Positions 44,409 through 47,401 of a stretch of 64,000 nucleotides of DNA are shown here, piece by piece. The position numbers and the translations under genes are program-made. Position 1 is the first letter of the stretch, and each line of letters starts with the position of its first letter. The notes beneath the pieces are model-generated. The model searched no databases. It was not told where the DNA came from and worked only from the letters and a program-made list of their open reading frames with translations. The stretch lies in the sequence record OQ223305.1; one strand, given 5' to 3'. The stretch is from Escherichia phage EO1.

Positions 44409-44481
44409 TGGGAATTAGCCAAGTTGGTAAGGCACTGGATTTTGATTCCAGGATGCAAAGGTTCGAGTCCTTTATTCCCAG
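44409..44481 (+). tRNA. tRNA-Gln (anticodon TTG)
   Basis: Cloverleaf: acceptor tgggaat/attccca, anticodon loop tTTTGAt, T-arm GGTTCGAGTCC. Confidence 0.85.
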
Positions 44482-44482
44482 C

Positions 44483-44569
44483 GCGAGAATGGTCAAATTG
44501 GTAAAGGCACAGCACTTAAAATGCTGCGGAATGATTTCCTTGTGGGTTCGAGTCCCACTTCTCGCACCA
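44483..44569 (+). tRNA. tRNA-Leu (anticodon TAA), type II with CCA encoded
   Basis: acceptor gcgagaa/ttctcgc, loop cTTAAAa, long variable arm, GGTTCGAGTCC. Confidence 0.85.
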
Positions 44570-44574
44570 AATTT

Positions 44575-44648
<74 letters not shown>

Positions 44649-44694
44649 ATTTATGACTCGTCGTGAGACGCTCAGTTCTTTATTAGGGACTGAT

Positions 44695-45303
44695 ATGCAT
44701 TTTTATCTTTATAAAATAACAAATAAAATTAATAATAAAGTTTATATTGGTGTGCATTCTACCGAAAATTTAGATGATGGATATATGGGTTCTGGCAAAT
44801 TATTAAAAAGAGCCCAAGACAAGTATGGTATAGAAAATTTCTCTAAAGAAATATTAGAGTATTTTGATGATAAAGAATCTATGCTTGAAGCCGAGAAAAA
44901 TATTGTCACAGAAGAGTTTTTAAATAGACCAGACGTGTATAATTTAAAACTTGGCGGTGAAGGTGGATGGGACCATATAAATAATTATCCTATGACAGAT
45001 CAGCAACGTGAATTAATTTCATTGGGTGTTAAAAAGGCGCATTCTAACGGAAAATTAAAAGGATGGTCTTCAAATGGATTAATGAAGAATGGCTTTGCTG
45101 GTAAAACTCATTCTCAAGAAGCTAAACGTAAAATAGCAAAAGCAAACGAAGCAAAAGTTTCTGCGGATGAAAGAAAAAGAAGAATAGAAATTTCTAAATT
45201 ATATGATTTTTCTAAGCGTGGTGAATTATCTAAATATGCTAAGCATATTGGCGTAAGTCATACTCAAGCAAAAAGAATTCTAAATCAAATTAACAATATA
45301 TAA
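44695..45303 (+). mobile_element. segB: GIY-YIG homing endonuclease SegB inserted in the tRNA cluster
   Basis: ORF 44653-45303; GIY-YIG motif YLYKITNKINNKVYIGVHS...GYMGSG; start likely the second Met (MHFYLYK). Confidence 0.75.
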
Positions 45304-45308
45304 TATTT

Positions 45309-45398
45309 GGAGGCGTGGCAGAGTGGTTTAATGCACCGGTCTTGAAAACCGGCAGTCGCTCCGGCGACTCATAGGTTCAAATCCTATCGCCTCCGCCA
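45309..45398 (+). tRNA. tRNA-Ser (anticodon TGA), type II
   Basis: acceptor ggaggcg/cgcctcc, loop cTTGAAa, long variable arm, GGTTCAAATCC. Confidence 0.85.
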
Positions 45399-45403
45399 GT
45401 TTT

Positions 45404-45479
45404 GCTGATTTAGCTCAGTAGGTAGAGCAACTCACTTGTAATGAGAATGTCGGCGGTTCGATTCCGTCAATCAGCACCA
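45404..45479 (+). tRNA. tRNA-Thr (anticodon TGT)
   Basis: acceptor gctgatt/aatcagc, loop cTTGTAa, GGTTCGATTCC. Confidence 0.85.
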
Positions 45480-45480
45480 A

Positions 45481-45555
45481 GGCCCTGTAGCTGGAAGGTT
45501 CAAGCAAGCGACTCATAATCGCCAGATGGTGGTTCAATTCCACCCAGGGCCACCA
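45481..45555 (+). tRNA. tRNA with CAT anticodon (Ile2/lysidine-type or Met)
   Basis: acceptor ggccctg/cagggcc, loop cTCATAa, T-arm GGTTCAATTCC; the T4 counterpart is the AUA-reading tRNA-Ile. Confidence 0.75.
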
Positions 45556-45568
45556 AATTAAGAATTAA

Positions 45569-45655
45569 GGGGAGTTATCCCGTAGAGGTAGCGGTGTGGA
45601 CTGTAAATCCATTGTCATTGCGACTCGGGTGGTTCGACTCCATCACTCCCCACCA
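45569..45655 (+). tRNA. tRNA-Tyr (anticodon GTA), type II
   Basis: acceptor ggggagt/actcccc, loop cTGTAAa, long variable arm, GGTTCGACTCC. Confidence 0.75.
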
Positions 45656-45659
45656 ATTT

Positions 45660-45734
45660 GGATGTGTAGCTCAATGGCAGAGCGATCGCCTGTTAAGCGA
45701 TTGGTTATAGGTTCGAATCCTATCACGTCCGCCA
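45660..45734 (+). tRNA. tRNA-Asn (anticodon GTT)
   Basis: acceptor ggatgtg/cacgtcc, loop cTGTTAa, GGTTCGAATCC. Confidence 0.8.
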
Positions 45735-45848
45735 AATTTGTGACAACTGTCACATTAATATCTACTTGACGCGATTATAGGGGTTGAACTGATCACTCTT
45801 CTCTTAATTTCGTGTGAAGACATCTTGATTGTTGGAGTAGGTATTAAT
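45735..45848 (+). other. AT-rich 114-nt spacer inside the tRNA array with a short hairpin (gtgac-aact-gtcac); possible small stable RNA or internal promoter
   Basis: No tRNA fold and no ORF; occupies the position where T4 carries small stable RNAs within its tRNA cluster. Confidence 0.25.
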
Positions 45849-45924
45849 GTGGCCGTAGTTCAGTTGGTAGAACTCGAGATTGTGATTCTCGTAGTCATGG
45901 GTTCGACCCCCATCGGTCACCCCA
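45849..45924 (+). tRNA. tRNA-His (anticodon GTG)
   Basis: acceptor gtggccg/cggtcac, loop tTGTGAt, GGTTCGACCCC; no encoded G-1. Confidence 0.75.
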
Positions 45925-45928
45925 ATTA

Positions 45929-46004
45929 CGGGGCATAGCTCAGAAGGAAGAGCAAGGACCTTCTAAGTCCTAGGTCGTAGGTTCGATCCCTACTGCCTCG
46001 ACCA
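45929..46004 (+). tRNA. tRNA-Arg (anticodon TCT)
   Basis: acceptor cggggca/tgcctcg, loop cTTCTAa, GGTTCGATCCC. Confidence 0.85.
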
Positions 46005-46022
46005 ATTATAAGTGAGGAAAAT

Positions 46023-46373
46023 ATGAAAGGTAATGTTTATTTAGTAGTTCATGATTTAACATTTTACTTCAATGAATATGAAAAACATATCTCATTTCGT
46101 GAAATTAATTTACTTTATCAACACGCGGATTATATTTATATTCAAAACGAATTTGGTCATTGGCAATTTCTCAAAAATCGTTCATTTGGCTTAGATGGTT
46201 ACGAATACTTTGAACGTAAAGACCTTTTAGATAAAATTCCGTTATCTACGCAATATCAAAATCACAAATCTTTATATAAATGCCGTCCAATTCGAAATGT
46301 TGAATCCGCGTATGAAGCAATTGATTTATGGCGTGAACGCCGTAAACAGATTTATGCTTTAAAAGAATATTAA
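46023..46373 (+). CDS. Hypothetical protein
   Basis: 116 aa ORF with RBS gaggaaaatATG directly after tRNA-Arg. Confidence 0.55.
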   Translation: MKGNVYLVVHDLTFYFNEYEKHISFREINLLYQHADYIYIQNEFGHWQFLKNRSFGLDGYEYFERKDLLDKIPLSTQYQNHKSLYKCRPIRNVESAYEAIDLWRERRKQIYALKEY

Positions 46374-46682
46374 GAAGCCGGGTCGCTACCGGTAAGTCGT
46401 CGGACTGATGTTCCCTGAGTAAGGAATTGCGTTAATAATCTTTGCGTTTATTGATGCCCTCTTACATCACAGCAGAAACGGCGCACCGAATTATCGATTC
46501 GAGGAAATATCTTTGCCGTAAGCCGAGTAGCGTTTTTGACGGAACGTTCGGATATGGTCGAGATATGGCCTTTTAAAAATATTGAGTAGCGTCAACTGCT
46601 TAATAACCGGGTTCGAATCCCGGCGTTTCGTACAAACACTTGCCTTAGCAGGTGGAACCCCGACAAGGTTGCCGCAAGGCTT
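46374..46682 (+). ncRNA. GC-rich ORF-free structured region; candidate stable RNA or degenerate tRNA-like element
   Basis: About 310 nt with no ORF of 60 aa or more on either strand, GC-rich against an AT-rich genome; contains tRNA T-arm-like ccgGGTTCGAATCCcgg and a repeated gagtagcgt motif. Confidence 0.3.
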
Positions 46683-46720
46683 AGCCCCGACCGAAAGGTT
46701 GGGGCTTTTTGGTATAAATA
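46683..46720 (+). terminator. Strong rho-independent terminator (46683-46711) followed directly by late promoter TATAAATA (46713-46720)
   Basis: agccccgacc-gaaa-ggttggggct plus ttttt; then gGTATAAATAtag. Confidence 0.65.
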
Positions 46721-46760
46721 TAGTAGTATATTAAATCCACGAATTAAAACAGGAAATAAG

Positions 46761-47234
46761 ATGAAATCATATACTCAATTTTTAAATGAAGCGGTGTTAA
46801 ATGAAGCATCTAGCACCGAAATTCAAGCTGTCGCAAAAGCAGCCATTGCAGCGGGTAAATATTCTTATAAAGATGCTTCTGATGAATCGCGATTCCAGTT
46901 CGCACGCGACATGAAAGCGGAAGGATTTACGGGAAATGCAGTTAGTATGGCCTGGAAAAGTTTAGTTGCTACTGGCGCTGCTTTTGCAAAGGCTTCGGGT
47001 AAACCTGCTCCTAAAGCAGATCCTAAAGCTGCACAAGAAAAAAATATTGTTAAAGGAATTATCGCTAAATATGAAGCTATCCTTAAAGAGCTTTTAGTAA
47101 TCAAAACCGAAGGCCAAAAGCTAGCTCGTGCTTATAGTTTCAAAGATAACCCACATGCTCATGACCTAGAGTATGTTGAAGATCTCCAAAAAATCATCAA
47201 AGACCGCATTTGGTCTGCTAAACAAATCAAATAA
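46761..47234 (+). CDS. Internal-protein-like protein with capsid targeting sequence
   Basis: 157 aa; N-terminus MKSYTQFLNEAVLNE resembles the T4 CTS (L-x-E cleavage motif); Ala/Lys-rich. Confidence 0.55.
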   Translation: MKSYTQFLNEAVLNEASSTEIQAVAKAAIAAGKYSYKDASDESRFQFARDMKAEGFTGNAVSMAWKSLVATGAAFAKASGKPAPKADPKAAQEKNIVKGIIAKYEAILKELLVIKTEGQKLARAYSFKDNPHAHDLEYVEDLQKIIKDRIWSAKQIK

Positions 47235-47251
47235 CATTCTTAGCCCTAGCC

Positions 47252-47280
47252 GAAAGGTTGGGGCTTTTTGGTATCTAGGC
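47252..47280 (+). terminator. Rho-independent terminator, near-duplicate of the 46683 terminator
   Basis: agccctagc-cgaaa-ggttggggct plus ttttt. Confidence 0.65.
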
Positions 47281-47401
47281 CTTTCCAGGCCTCTCTAGAC
47301 ATCATTTAGTTTCTACCCTTTATAATATATTATCCTATCCTTTGATTTCCCCTCCCTGCCCTAGAATTCCCCAAAACTTTTTAAAAATTTTTCACAAAAC
47401 T

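What the first reader, a model, noticed from the sequence alone, without database searches (positions are those of the whole stretch)
46374..46712. GC-rich ORF-free structured region downstream of the tRNA array
About 310 nt with no ORF of 60 aa or more on either strand, GC-rich within an AT-rich genome. It contains a perfect tRNA T-arm-like element ccgGGTTCGAATCCcgg (46607-46623) and a repeated gagtagcgt motif, and ends in a strong terminator. It could encode a stable small RNA, a degenerate tRNA, or another structured RNA.
Basis: seen in the sequence. Interest (0 to 1): 0.5.

Follow-up and report, generated by a model that had tools for sequence, protein, structure and literature searches.

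The report
T4 stable RNAs rnaD and rnaC
The flagged stretch holds this T4-like phage's copies of two small stable RNAs known since the 1970s (species 2/rnaD and species 1/rnaC) plus the tRNA-operon terminator, so it is a rediscovery; their function is still unknown, and the comparison here shows rnaC to be a conserved tRNA-like fold locked by a loop-loop contact.

Summary
The region 46374-46712 has no ORF of 60 aa or more, about 44% GC against 31-36% nearby, a perfect T-arm at 46607-46623, GAGTAGCGT twice, and a 10-bp terminator.

It is not new. The stretch is about 98% identical to phage T4 rnaD (species 2 RNA) and rnaC (species 1 RNA), the last genes of the tRNA operon. Here they map to 46370-46487 and 46494-46632. 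Rfam has no family for either, and papers up to 2025 call their function unknown.

- rnaC occurs in at least six named genera of Tevenvirinae, with or without rnaD.
- It folds as a tRNA-like cloverleaf: an acceptor-like stem with two invariant U.U mismatches, a long arm in the D-arm position, a 10-bp hairpin and a canonical T-arm.
- 97-98.5% of cells are paired and 25-30 pairs show compensatory changes.
- The two apical loops, UUGACG and CGUCAA, are exact complements. In Klebsiella phages they change together to UUGGCG/CGCCAA, which points to a kissing-loop contact.
- rnaD is a rod with conserved ends and a hypervariable tip.

Most likely rnaC is a non-chargeable tRNA top-half mimic cut out by tRNA-processing enzymes. 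Its partner is unknown.

The parts
46370..46487 (+). rnaD orthologue (T4 species 2 RNA), about 118 nt. The true 5' end in this phage is not known; the stop codon of the upstream ORF (46371-46373) overlaps its first bases.
   Evidence: It aligns to T4 rnaD (NC_000866.4 71053-71171, minus strand) with 1 substitution and 1 single-base deletion after the first 3 nt. The consensus fold on 24 sequences has 97.5% of cells paired and 5 pairs with compensatory change; slid controls give 2 or fewer.
46377..46393 (+). rnaD hairpin 1: stem GCCGG/CCGGU with an invariant 7-nt loop GUCGCUA (46382-46388).
   Evidence: The closing pair covaries as A-U (17 sequences), G-U (3) and G-C (4), and is never A-C.
46396..46402 (+). 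rnaD closing stem, 5' strand GUCGUCG. It pairs with 46479-46486 (CGGCGCAC, with C46484 bulged).
   Evidence: RNAalifold consensus. All pairs are invariant, so the comparison neither supports nor contradicts this helix.
46423..46461 (+). rnaD hypervariable apical segment.
   Evidence: At least three unrelated sequence types occupy this position among 24 T4-like phages, while the 5' 46 nt and the 3' 25 nt are nearly invariant.
46488..46493 (+). A/U-rich spacer GAAUUA between rnaD and rnaC; a probable endonuclease (RNase E-type) cleavage region.
   Evidence: An A-rich spacer of similar composition (AAUUA, AAUAA, AACAA) precedes rnaC in most lineages, whether the upstream gene is rnaD or a tRNA ending in CCA; two lineages differ (GACUA, GGUAU). 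Cleavage there is inferred, not shown.
46494..46632 (+). rnaC orthologue (T4 species 1 RNA), 139 nt.
   Evidence: 137 of 139 bases are identical to T4 rnaC (70908-71046, minus strand). MFE -50.2 kcal/mol, z = -4.55. Covariance model R1 scores it at 163.8 bits (the window sequence was in the training set).
46495..46501 (+). rnaC acceptor-like stem, 5' strand CGAUUCG. It pairs with 46624-46630 (CGUUUCG) and contains two invariant central U.U mismatches.
   Evidence: The third pair covaries: A-U in 16 sequences and G-C in 15, with none broken. The other four pairs are invariant.
46502..46571 (+). rnaC long arm, in the D-arm position. It runs from the AGG/CCU base helix through helices with internal loops to the apical loop, and includes the junction GG at 46567-46568.
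   Evidence: 18 of its 21 variable-region pairs (helices 3 and 4) show compensatory changes. Two unrelated sequence classes of this arm keep the same shape.
46536..46541 (+). Apical loop UUGACG of the long arm; kissing-loop partner 1.
   Evidence: It is invariant in 29 of 31 sequences, including those whose stems are entirely different. In Klebsiella phages it is UUGGCG, together with the matching change in the partner loop.
46572..46579 (+). Single-stranded A/U-rich linker UUUAAAAA.
   Evidence: Unpaired in both the consensus and the MFE folds. The A-run is largely conserved.
46580..46605 (+). 10-bp hairpin in the anticodon or variable-arm position, with the 6-nt loop CGUCAA (46590-46595); kissing-loop partner 2.
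   Evidence: 9 of 10 stem pairs show compensatory changes. The loop is the exact reverse complement of 46536-46541. All 6 inter-loop pairs are intact in 31 of 31 sequences, and one of them changes from A-U to G-C.
46607..46623 (+). T-arm CCGGG-UUCGAAU-CCCGG.
   Evidence: The middle stem pair covaries between G-C (17 sequences) and U-A (12). The loop is UUCRARU everywhere except in CIP9-type phages.
46631..46636 (+). 3' tail region UACAAA. The T4 annotation ends the mature RNA at UA (46632).
   Evidence: After the acceptor-like stem all lineages read U-[A/C]-C-A-[A/G]; Klebsiella phages read UCCAA, that is N73-CCA.
46637..46680 (+). Trailer with three small hairpins: CACUUGC/GCAGGUG at 46637-46654, AACC/GGUU at 46656-46670, and GCC-GCAA-GGC at 46671-46680.
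   Evidence: MFE fold of 46633-46715. The trailer is retained directly after rnaD in phages that lack rnaC (JS98, LQ5).
46683..46711 (+). Intrinsic terminator of the tRNA operon: AGCCCCGACC-GAAA-GGUUGGGGCU followed by UUUUU.
   Evidence: Terminator scan. It is identical in T4. Published work says the T4 tRNA-operon transcript terminates after the species I gene (PMC2330249).

Best explanation
The region carries the last two genes of the phage's tRNA operon, followed by the operon terminator. These genes are the orthologues of T4 rnaD (species 2 RNA, 46370-46487) and rnaC (species 1 RNA, 46494-46632).

Shown here:
- The sequence identity with the T4 genes and the shared gene order.
- rnaC folds into a cloverleaf with tRNA topology. 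It has a 7-position acceptor-like stem with two invariant U.U mismatches, stacked next to a canonical T-arm. A roughly 70-nt long arm replaces the D-arm. A 10-bp hairpin sits in place of the anticodon or variable arm.
- The long arm's loop (UUGACG) and the hairpin's loop (CGUCAA) are exact complements that co-vary.
- rnaD is an independent module with conserved 5' and 3' ends. Its predicted fold (part covariation-supported, closing stem invariant) is a small 5' hairpin plus a rod closed by those ends, with a free-evolving tip.

Taken from the literature:
- Both RNAs are made as part of the long tRNA-operon transcript.
- RNAC is validated in T4 as a discrete RNA by Northern blot, and RNAC and RNAD are classed as late RNAs (PMC9697503).

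Inferred, not shown:
- They are cut out by the host tRNA-processing machinery: RNase P at the tRNA-like 5' end of rnaC, endonuclease cuts in the A/U spacers, and 3' trimming.
- rnaC cannot be charged or decode. It has no anticodon loop, and position 74 is A rather than C in most lineages.
- It acts in trans as a mimic of the tRNA 'top half' (acceptor, T-arm and elbow), binding a factor that recognises that part of tRNA, as decoy, sponge or scaffold. The kissing loops lock the rest of the molecule into a compact, nuclease-resistant body.

My confidence is about 0.97 for the identity, about 0.85 for the secondary structure, about 0.6 for the loop-loop contact, and about 0.35 for the trans-acting tRNA-mimic function. 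The single confidence value given for this explanation (0.8) refers to the identity plus the structural description, not to the inferred function.
For: Identity:
- The alignment to T4 and to the T4 annotation gives rnaC 137/139 identical and rnaD 1 substitution plus 1 indel.
- 805 phage records match, most of them Escherichia and Shigella Tequatrovirus.
- The T2L record annotates the same two RNAs after the same trna.2 ORF.

Transcription and stability:
- PMC2330249 describes a 1.75-kb primary transcript that is the precursor of 8 tRNAs and of species I and II, terminating after species I.
- PMC9697503 reports late accumulation of RNAC and RNAD and a Northern blot of RNAC.

Structure of rnaC:
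- RNAalifold predicts 45 pairs, 25 of them with compensatory change.
- 98.5% of cells are paired. There are 25 compensatory pairs against 7.4 +/- 1.7 in shuffles (0 of 500 reach 25) and 10 or fewer in slid controls.
- With 31 sequences from more genera: 97.0% paired and 30 compensatory pairs.

Kissing loops:
- All 6 inter-loop pairs are intact in 31 of 31 sequences.
- The loops are invariant even where the stem sequences are unrelated.
- They change from A-U to G-C together in the Klebsiella-phage clade.

tRNA-likeness:
- ARAGORN calls a 95-nt 'tRNA-Met' on the homologue in phage id4496.
- Rfam gives a weak tRNA-Sec match at 46539-46631.
- The 3' flank is U-[A/C]-CA.
- In Karamvirus, Kanagawavirus, Gelderlandvirus and Moonvirus phages rnaC sits inside the tRNA array, between two tRNAs.

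Modularity:
- rnaC occurs without rnaD in Enterobacter, Klebsiella, Citrobacter, Salmonella and Kosakonia phages.
- rnaD occurs without rnaC in JS98, LQ5 and TH40.
Against: - No experiment or computation here shows any binding partner or phenotype. The function is still called unknown in 2010, 2022 and 2025 papers.
- By my recollection of the older literature (not checked here), T4 deletions that remove the whole tRNA region are viable on laboratory strains, so any function is conditional.
- The kissing-loop covariation rests on a single evolutionary event in one clade. It cannot tell an intramolecular contact from an intermolecular one.
- RNase P cleavage, the exact 5' and 3' ends in this phage, and the absence of CCA addition are inferred, not shown.
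- rnaD's closing stem is invariant, so it has no comparative support, and its fold energy is not unusual (z = -1.36).
- The covariance-model alignments lean towards the model's structure. The independent MAFFT/RNAalifold run gave the same fold.
Confidence: 0.8

Rival explanations
1. rnaC is a decaying pseudo-tRNA (a relic of a class II tRNA gene with a long variable arm) and rnaD is spacer RNA. Both merely survive because they are structured, and neither has a function.
For: - A canonical T-arm and an acceptor-like stem are present.
- ARAGORN calls a 95-nt tRNA-Met on a homologue, and other records label it tRNA-Met or tRNA-OTHER.
- There is a weak Rfam tRNA-Sec match (16.6 bits, E = 4.5).
- The location is in or next to tRNA arrays.
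- By my recollection, tRNA-region deletions are viable.
Against: - 25-30 base pairs are kept by compensatory changes across at least six named genera.
- Two 6-nt loops, the tandem U.U mismatches and the junction GG are invariant while neighbouring stems turn over completely. That is the signature of selection on the RNA, not of decay.
- The internal 5' strand that the tRNA-finder uses (ACGGAACG) becomes ACGAAACG in most phages whose 3' strand is CGUUCCG. This gives an A.C mismatch, so that 'tRNA' pairing is not conserved.
- rnaC is 90-99% identical across hundreds of phages whose rnaD centre has diverged beyond recognition.
Confidence: 0.05
2. The RNAs are cis-acting parts of the tRNA operon. 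They act as structured 3' modules that protect the precursor from 3' exonucleases or guide its ordered processing, and have no role once released.
For: - In T4-type phages they lie at the 3' end of the operon, directly before the terminator.
- They are part of the same primary transcript (PMC2330249).
- A/U-rich spacers resembling nuclease sites flank them.
Against: - In Karamvirus, Kanagawavirus, Gelderlandvirus and Moonvirus phages rnaC lies in the middle of the array with tRNAs on both sides, not at the 3' end.
- JS98 and LQ5 keep rnaD, the trailer and the terminator but have lost rnaC exactly. The modules are therefore not needed for one another or for termination.
- RNAC is validated as a discrete RNA by Northern blot, and RNAC and RNAD accumulate late in infection (PMC9697503).
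- A protective hairpin would not need two invariant complementary loops and a T-loop.
Confidence: 0.12
3. They are base-pairing regulatory sRNAs (Hfq-type) that act on phage or host mRNAs through their single-stranded segments, for example UUUAAAAA in rnaC or the GUCGCUA loop in rnaD.
For: - Their size is 118-139 nt.
- There are conserved unpaired segments.
- A convergent SNP in rnaD arose when a T4-like phage adapted to a semi-permissive host (PMC12685909).
Against: - The mature RNAs annotated in T4 end before the terminator, so they lack the hairpin plus U-tail that Hfq-dependent sRNAs normally carry.
- The most conserved unpaired bases of rnaC are complementary to each other rather than free.
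- No trans-acting sRNA has been characterised in T4 (PMC3014915).
- There is no similarity to E. coli genomes at blastn sensitivity, although short seeds would be missed.
Confidence: 0.1
rnaC would then form dimers or rings, and the oligomer would be the active species.
For: - The two loops are non-self-complementary, mutually complementary 6-mers that co-vary. That is exactly the arrangement that drives pRNA ring formation.
- Covariation cannot distinguish intra- from intermolecular pairing.
- The long arm (about 24 bp) is much longer than the 10-bp hairpin, so an intramolecular kiss needs a sharp bend.
Against: - No T4 process is known to need an RNA ring; T4 packaging works without RNA (established knowledge, not tested here).
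- The internal loops and the 3-nt bulge in the long arm could supply the bend.
Confidence: 0.1
5. The region encodes small proteins (ORFs of 44 or 50 aa) rather than RNAs.
For: - ORFs 46442-46576 (TTG start, 44 aa) and 46582-46734 (TTG start, 50 aa) exist.
- Several GenBank records annotate 'hypothetical protein' here.
Against: - Both ORFs straddle module boundaries that are broken in relatives. The first spans the rnaD/rnaC junction, which is absent in phages lacking rnaD. The second runs through the terminator, which is replaced by a tRNA gene in Karamvirus.
- The substitutions are paired stem changes, not codon-position changes.
Confidence: 0.01

Closest known systems
Phage T4 rnaC (species 1 / species I RNA; T4s001)
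   Same: 137 of 139 bases are identical. It has the same neighbours (rnaD upstream, the trailer and terminator downstream) and the same predicted fold.
   Different: Two substitutions: U to C at 46559 in the long arm, and A to G at 46598 in the hairpin stem, where the pair becomes U.G. Otherwise nothing differs; this is the same gene.
Phage T4 rnaD (species 2 / species II RNA; T4s002)
   Same: The same 5' 46 nt, the same 3' 25 nt and the same central type as T4 itself.
   Different: In T4 it starts 1 nt after tRNA-Arg. Here, as in T2L, the 116-aa ORF trna.2 lies between them, and its stop codon overlaps the first bases of rnaD, so the 5' end must be made differently. One G is deleted after 46409. 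The base after the 3' ACC is G, not A.
Transfer RNA (especially class II tRNAs with a long variable arm)
   Same: - Cloverleaf topology with four helices.
- A 7-position acceptor stem next to a 5-bp T-stem with a UUCGAAU loop.
- A 3' flank resembling N73-CCA.
- Location in a tRNA operon.
- A possible GG/T-loop elbow contact.
   Different: - No D-arm; a roughly 70-nt arm stands in its place.
- No 7-nt anticodon loop; the equivalent hairpin has a 10-bp stem and a 6-nt invariant loop paired to another loop.
- An 8-nt single strand replaces nucleotide 26.
- Two U.U mismatches in the acceptor stem.
- CCA is not encoded in most lineages.
- Not called by ARAGORN or by Rfam tRNA.
tRNA-like domain of tmRNA
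   Same: The 5' and 3' ends form an acceptor stem next to a T-arm. The D-arm is replaced, and the body of the RNA is held together by tertiary pairings.
   Different: - No G3.U70 alanine identity pair; the third pair is A-U or G-C.
- No tag reading frame.
- 139 nt rather than about 360 nt.
- ARAGORN finds no tmRNA.
Bacterial Y-RNA-like YrlA (tRNA-like module bound by Rsr/Ro60)
   Same: A non-coding RNA that copies the acceptor, T-arm and D-arm part of tRNA and is handled by tRNA enzymes. rnaD's layout (conserved stem closed by the two ends, with a bulged C and a variable tip) resembles the Ro-binding stem layout of Y RNAs. Both points are resemblances recalled from memory and were not tested.
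   Different: In YrlA the tRNA-like part is internal and the ends form the Ro-binding stem. Here the ends form the acceptor stem. No Y_RNA or YrlA match appeared in Rfam. As far as I know, E. coli K-12 has no Rsr.
   Same: Two loops in one RNA that are complementary to each other and co-vary.
   Different: pRNA loops pair between molecules to build a ring on the packaging motor. There is no sequence or fold similarity to rnaC, and the T4 motor needs no RNA.

Membership tests
T4 rnaC (species 1 RNA) | Sequence homology to T4 70908-71046 over the full length | tested here: met
   137 of 139 identical, no gaps; alignment.
T4 rnaC (species 1 RNA) | Position: distal end of the tRNA cluster, after rnaD and before the operon terminator | tested here: met
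   The order is tRNA array, trna.2 ORF, rnaD, rnaC, terminator.
T4 rnaC (species 1 RNA) | Accumulates as a discrete stable RNA of about 140 nt in infected cells | not testable with these tools
   Shown for T4 by Northern blot (PMC9697503). No expression data exist for this phage.
T4 rnaD (species 2 RNA) | Sequence homology to T4 71053-71171 over the full length | tested here: met
   From T4 position 4 to 119 there is 1 substitution and 1 single-base deletion. The first 3 nt differ because of the upstream ORF.
T4 rnaD (species 2 RNA) | Immediately follows tRNA-Arg in the operon | tested here: not met
   A 351-bp ORF (46023-46373, equivalent to T2L trna.2) separates tRNA-Arg (45929-46004) from rnaD. 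This is the T2L arrangement, in which the RNA is still annotated as rnaD, so the feature is not truly defining.
tRNA | Recognised by tRNA detectors or covariance models | tested here: not met
   ARAGORN finds 10 tRNAs and none in 46370-46712. Rfam tRNA gives no match. The only clan match is tRNA-Sec at 16.6 bits against a gathering score of 47.
tRNA | Acceptor stem of 7 pairs plus a T-arm with a T-psi-C loop | tested here: met
   CGAUUCG/CGUUUCG has 5 Watson-Crick pairs and 2 invariant U.U mismatches, and its third pair covaries. The T-arm CCGGG-UUCGAAU-CCCGG has a covarying stem pair.
tRNA | D-arm, and an anticodon arm with a 7-nt loop | tested here: not met
   The D position is occupied by a roughly 70-nt arm. 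The other hairpin has a 10-bp stem and an invariant 6-nt loop complementary to the long-arm loop.
tRNA | 3' CCA end (encoded or added) and aminoacylation | tested here: inconclusive
   The genome reads U-ACA here and U-CCA in Klebsiella phages. The T4 annotation ends the RNA at UA. Addition of CCA and charging cannot be tested here.
tmRNA | Called by ARAGORN; G3.U70 pair; tag reading frame | tested here: not met
   No tmRNA is called. The third acceptor pair is A-U or G-C. No tag frame was found: ARAGORN, which looks for one, called no tmRNA; I did not search for a frame separately.
Any Rfam family | Match at or above a family's gathering score | tested here: not met
   Only the 10 tRNAs reach threshold in the window. 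In 45950-47350 nothing other than tRNA has E below 0.9.
Intrinsic (Rho-independent) terminator | G+C-rich hairpin followed by a U-run, at the end of a transcription unit | tested here: met
   46683-46706 is a 10-bp stem with 7 G-C pairs and a GAAA loop, followed by TTTTT. It is conserved in T4. Termination itself is taken from the literature.

The most novel reading that the evidence does not exclude
rnaC may be a dedicated, non-chargeable mimic of the tRNA acceptor, T-arm and elbow, with a body locked by a kissing loop. It is conserved across Tevenvirinae that infect Enterobacterales. On this reading the phage uses it as a host-specific counter-measure, for example as a decoy for a host factor or defence toxin that attacks or senses the acceptor end or elbow of tRNAs, or as a modulator of RNase P or CCA-end metabolism. 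rnaD, with its conserved base and fast-evolving tip, would be a second, independently acquired host-range RNA. That fits the convergent rnaD mutation reported during adaptation to a semi-permissive E. coli strain (PMC12685909). The evidence here does not exclude this reading, but it does not point to a particular partner either.
Probability: 0.15. Interest if true: 0.7.

Novelty: already known. Interest (0 to 1): 0.3.

Why it matters
As a scan result it matters little, because the element is annotated in the T4 reference genome and has been known for about fifty years.

It is nevertheless one of the oldest unsolved items in T4 biology. These are two abundant phage RNAs with no known role, and neither has an Rfam family. 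The comparative model built here gives concrete handles for solving it:
- a cloverleaf with invariant tandem U.U mismatches;
- a co-varying kissing-loop pair;
- a possible T-loop/GG elbow contact;
- modular presence and absence of rnaC and rnaD across genera.

It would also stop recurrent mis-annotation of this locus as 'hypothetical protein', 'tRNA-Met' or 'tRNA-OTHER' in phage genomes.

Tried and rejected
1. Rfam at gathering and at E up to 10: no family. The only tRNA-clan match is a sub-threshold tRNA-Sec alignment.
2. ARAGORN on the window: nothing in the region.
3. Alternative acceptor pairing of the 3' strand with the internal ACGGAACG (46539-46546), as used by ARAGORN and Rfam on relatives. 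Rejected because most CGUUCCG-type phages have ACGAAACG there, giving an A.C mismatch, and the variable base is explained instead by a local U-R pair in the long-arm tip helix.
4. Pairing of GAAACG at the 3' end of rnaD with CGUUUC of rnaC: only 6 bp, and impossible in phages that lack rnaD. Not pursued.
5. Complementarity of the rnaD loop CGCUA to the repeated UAGCG of rnaC: 5 nt, lying in stems, and not conserved where rnaD is absent. Judged to be chance.
6. A kink-turn reading of rnaD's conserved 6x4 internal loop (GACUGA/GAAA): the G.A/A.G positions do not fit.
7. rnaD as tRNA-like because T4 reads ...CACCA. Rejected: the last bases vary (CACCG, CACAG, CACCU) and are paired in the fold.
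8. Metagenome scan with TTCGAGGA-N(95-125)-GGCGTTYCGTA.
9. Two viral-contig scans added 17 and 3 true homologues but no second covariation event in the loops.
10. E. coli genomes by blastn: no homologue, so there is no sign of a host origin or a host copy.
11. The older primary literature (1970s sequencing, RNase III and RNase P work, the Miller 2003 review) is not in the searchable library. Statements about it are marked as recollection.
Full report
**What is in the sequence.**
- The window region 46374-46712 has no ORF of 60 aa or more; the longest are 44, 34 and 50 aa.
- GC is 0.42-0.44, against 0.31-0.37 in flanking coding DNA and 0.50 over the tRNA genes.
- CCGGG-TTCGAAT-CCCGG lies at 46607-46623.
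- GAGTAGCGT occurs twice, at 46525-46533 and 46584-46592, against 0.15 expected in the whole window.
- A 10-bp terminator with a GAAA loop lies at 46683-46706 and is followed by a T-run.
- Upstream, ARAGORN and Rfam find ten tRNA genes at 44409-46004. Neither tool, nor an E-value-mode Rfam scan, assigns the flagged region to any family. The only tRNA-clan signal is a tRNA-Sec alignment at 16.6 bits, far below its threshold of 47.

**Identity.** blastn against phage genomes gives 805 records, mostly Escherichia and Shigella Tequatrovirus, 679 of them covering at least 80% of the query.
- In the T4 reference genome the homologous stretch carries two annotated misc_RNA genes directly after tRNA-Arg. 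These are rnaD ('small, stable RNA; species 2 RNA', 71053-71171) and rnaC ('species 1 RNA', 70908-71046).
- The window aligns to them almost base for base. rnaC corresponds to 46494-46632 with 137 of 139 bases identical. rnaD corresponds to about 46370-46487 with one substitution and one single-base deletion.
- The 116-aa ORF at 46023-46373, which separates tRNA-Arg from rnaD here, is absent from T4. It is the 'trna.2' ORF of phage T2L, whose record also annotates rnaD and rnaC after it.
- The finding is therefore a rediscovery of two named genes.

**What is known about them.**
- Within the searchable literature their role is stated to be unknown in 2010 (PMC3014915), 2022 (PMC9697503) and 2025 (PMC12685909).
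- They are made as part of a roughly 1.75-kb primary transcript from a middle promoter upstream of the tRNA cluster. That transcript is the precursor of the eight T4 tRNAs and of both RNAs, and it terminates after the species I gene (PMC2330249).
- They behave as late-accumulating RNAs, and RNAC was confirmed by Northern blot.
- In an evolution experiment, a T4-like phage adapting to the semi-permissive strain ECOR34 acquired the same SNP inside rnaD in all lines.
- The 1970s primary papers are not in the library. My recollections that species 1 RNA is an in vitro RNase III substrate and that T4 deletions of the whole tRNA region are viable on laboratory strains are unverified here.

**Distribution.** The two RNAs are separable modules.
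- rnaC is found with rnaD in Tequatrovirus, Mosigvirus and Gaprivervirus VR7.
- rnaC is found without rnaD in Karamvirus and Kanagawavirus (Enterobacter and Kosakonia phages), Moonvirus (Salmonella KM16, Citrobacter NM4.3), Gelderlandvirus (Salmonella Melville), Citrobacter phage Ursula, an Edwardsiella PEi20-type contig, and a clade of Klebsiella phages.
- In many of these phages rnaC lies inside the tRNA array, a few bases after a tRNA ending in CCA and a few bases before the next tRNA.
- Conversely, JS98 (Dhakavirus), LQ5 and TH40 keep rnaD but have no detectable rnaC. In JS98 and LQ5, rnaD joins directly to the trailer and terminator; in TH40 about 500 nt of other sequence lie between.
- rnaC is much the more conserved: most records are 90-99% identical. 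For rnaD most records are 80-90% identical and 98 fall below 80%.
- No similar sequence exists in 5,426 complete E. coli genomes at blastn sensitivity.

**Structure of rnaC.** RNAalifold on a MAFFT alignment of 23 distinct sequences gives the same fold as the single-sequence minimum-energy fold. In order along the RNA it consists of:
- a terminal stem CGAUUCG/CGUUUCG (46495-46501 with 46624-46630), whose two central positions are U.U in every sequence;
- a 3-bp helix AGG/CCU that opens into a long arm of about 70 nt (46502-46571);
- an unpaired UUUAAAAA (46572-46579);
- a 10-bp hairpin (46580-46605);
- one unpaired A;
- the T-arm (46607-46623), followed by the 3' strand of the terminal stem and UA.

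This has the four-helix topology of a tRNA cloverleaf, with the acceptor-like stem adjacent to the T-arm.

Support from comparison is strong.
- 98.5% of cells are paired. 25 of 45 pairs have compensatory changes, against 7.4 +/- 1.7 in column shuffles (0 of 500 reach 25) and 10 or fewer when partners are slid by 1-3 columns.
- With 31 sequences aligned by a covariance model built from the first alignment, 97.0% are paired and 30 pairs are compensatory.
- The third pair of the acceptor-like stem switches cleanly between A-U (16 sequences) and G-C (15). The middle T-stem pair switches between G-C (17) and U-A (12).
- The long arm exists in two unrelated sequence classes that keep the same helices.

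**A loop-loop contact.** This is the one observation I did not expect.
- The apical loop of the long arm, UUGACG (46536-46541), is the exact reverse complement of the loop of the 10-bp hairpin, CGUCAA (46590-46595).
- Both are invariant in 29 of 31 sequences, including all those in which the supporting stems have been completely replaced.
- In the Klebsiella-phage clade they read UUGGCG and CGCCAA, so the A-U pair has become G-C.
- All six inter-loop pairs are thus intact in all 31 sequences, with one compensatory change.
- That is a single evolutionary event, roughly a 1-in-18 coincidence if two independent single changes had occurred. Two further viral-contig scans found no second event.
- Together with the prior improbability of a perfect 6-mer match between two loops, I rate a kissing-loop contact as likely (about 0.6). 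Comparative data cannot say whether it forms within one molecule or between molecules.

**Further tRNA-like details.**
- The T-loop is UUCRARU in every lineage except CIP9-type Kanagawavirus, where it is UGCAUGC.
- That same lineage is the only one in which the otherwise invariant junction GG (46567-46568) reads CG.
- This co-change is what one would expect if GG contacts the T-loop as G18-G19 do in tRNA. It is again a single event.
- After the acceptor-like stem every lineage reads U-[A/C]-C-A-[A/G]: UACAA here and UCCAA in Klebsiella phages. This resembles N73-CCA with position 74 usually A.
- Tools and annotators are sometimes fooled. ARAGORN calls a 95-nt 'tRNA-Met' on the homologue in phage id4496, and other records carry 'tRNA-Met' or 'tRNA-OTHER' here.
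- That call uses an internal strand (ACGGAACG) as the 5' acceptor strand. In most phages with the CGUUCCG 3' strand the internal strand is ACGAAACG, an A.C mismatch, so the pairing is not conserved.
- rnaC therefore resembles a tRNA but fails the defining tests. It has no D-arm and no 7-nt anticodon loop, and it is not recognised by tRNA models.

**Structure of rnaD.**
- The 5' 46 nt and the 3' 25 nt are almost invariant, while the middle 40 nt or so occurs in at least three unrelated versions.
- The consensus fold is a small 5' hairpin (46377-46393, loop GUCGCUA) followed by a long irregular rod. The rod is closed by GUCGUCG (46396-46402) with CGGCGCAC (46479-46486, one bulged C). It contains a conserved asymmetric internal loop (GACUGA/GAAA).
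- Support is moderate. 97.5% of cells are paired and five pairs are compensatory, against 2 or fewer in slid controls. The count of such pairs is not above the shuffles (159 of 500), the closing stem never varies, and the fold energy is unremarkable (z = -1.36).

**How it most likely works.**
- Shown here: the identity, the synteny, the fold of rnaC and the modular distribution.
- From the literature: co-transcription with the tRNAs and accumulation as discrete RNAs.
- Inferred: release by the tRNA-processing machinery. The steps would be RNase P at the base of the acceptor-like stem, endonuclease cuts in the A/U-rich spacers that flank rnaC in most lineages, and 3' trimming.
- Inferred: rnaC is a non-decoding, probably non-chargeable mimic of the upper half of a tRNA. 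It would work in trans by occupying something that recognises the acceptor, T-arm and elbow, with the kissing loops giving a compact, stable body.
- I give this last step about 0.35.

Rivals, with reasons set out in the rival section:
- a cis-acting processing or stability module (0.12), weakened by rnaC lying mid-array in several genera and by its clean loss in JS98;
- a base-pairing sRNA (0.10);
- a functionless tRNA relic (0.05), which is hard to reconcile with 25-30 compensated pairs and invariant loops;
- small proteins (0.01).

Noticed in passing
window 46680-46715 and 47239-47274, with ORF 46761-47234 between them: The 36-nt terminator module is duplicated (92% identical, 559 bp apart). 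The two copies flank a 157-aa ORF with no Pfam match. T4 has one copy and no ORF there, and its sequence after the terminator continues as the window's does after the second copy. This looks like a gene cassette inserted or exchanged by recombination between terminator copies.
   Followed up: partly
window 44653-45303: A GIY-YIG/NUMOD3 homing-endonuclease ORF (216 aa) sits between tRNA-Gly and tRNA-Ser. T4's segB sits elsewhere in the cluster, between tRNA-Ile and tRNA-Arg. The tRNA set also differs from T4: Met, Tyr, Asn and His are present, and Pro and Ile are absent.
   Followed up: partly
window 46023-46373: A 116-aa ORF with no Pfam match lies between tRNA-Arg and rnaD. It is equivalent to T2L 'trna.2' and is absent from T4. 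Its stop codon overlaps the first bases of rnaD, so the 5' end of rnaD cannot be produced here as it is in T4.
   Followed up: partly
L004 1554-1648; GenBank records MK373781, NC_054918, PQ819475-7, NC_054920 and others: Public annotations over rnaC and rnaD are often wrong. They include short 'hypothetical protein' CDSs, a 95-nt 'tRNA-Met' and a 'tRNA-OTHER'. Only a few records (T4, T4T, T2L, RB3, Kha5h) name rnaC or rnaD.
   Followed up: yes
L003 1509-1648, L061 4203-4342 (also L017, L050): CIP9-type Kanagawavirus phages are the only lineage with a non-canonical T-loop (UGCAUGC). They are also the only lineage in which the invariant junction GG is CG. This is a possible co-change of a tRNA-like elbow contact, seen as one event only.
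   Followed up: partly
L075 (JS98) 501-704, L006 (LQ5) 1499-1704, L007 (TH40) 1499-2193: These phages keep rnaD and the trailer plus terminator but lack rnaC. In JS98 and LQ5 the junction is exact, while TH40 has about 500 nt of other sequence in its place.
   Followed up: partly
window 45735-45848: A 114-nt non-coding gap lies between tRNA-Asn and tRNA-His. It contains a short palindrome (TGTGACAACTGTCACA). It was not examined.
   Followed up: no
window 45569-45655: tRNA-Tyr scores only 30.2 bits with the Rfam tRNA model, just above the threshold of 29. The other nine tRNAs score 59-74 bits. ARAGORN calls it as an 87-nt class II tRNA.
   Followed up: no
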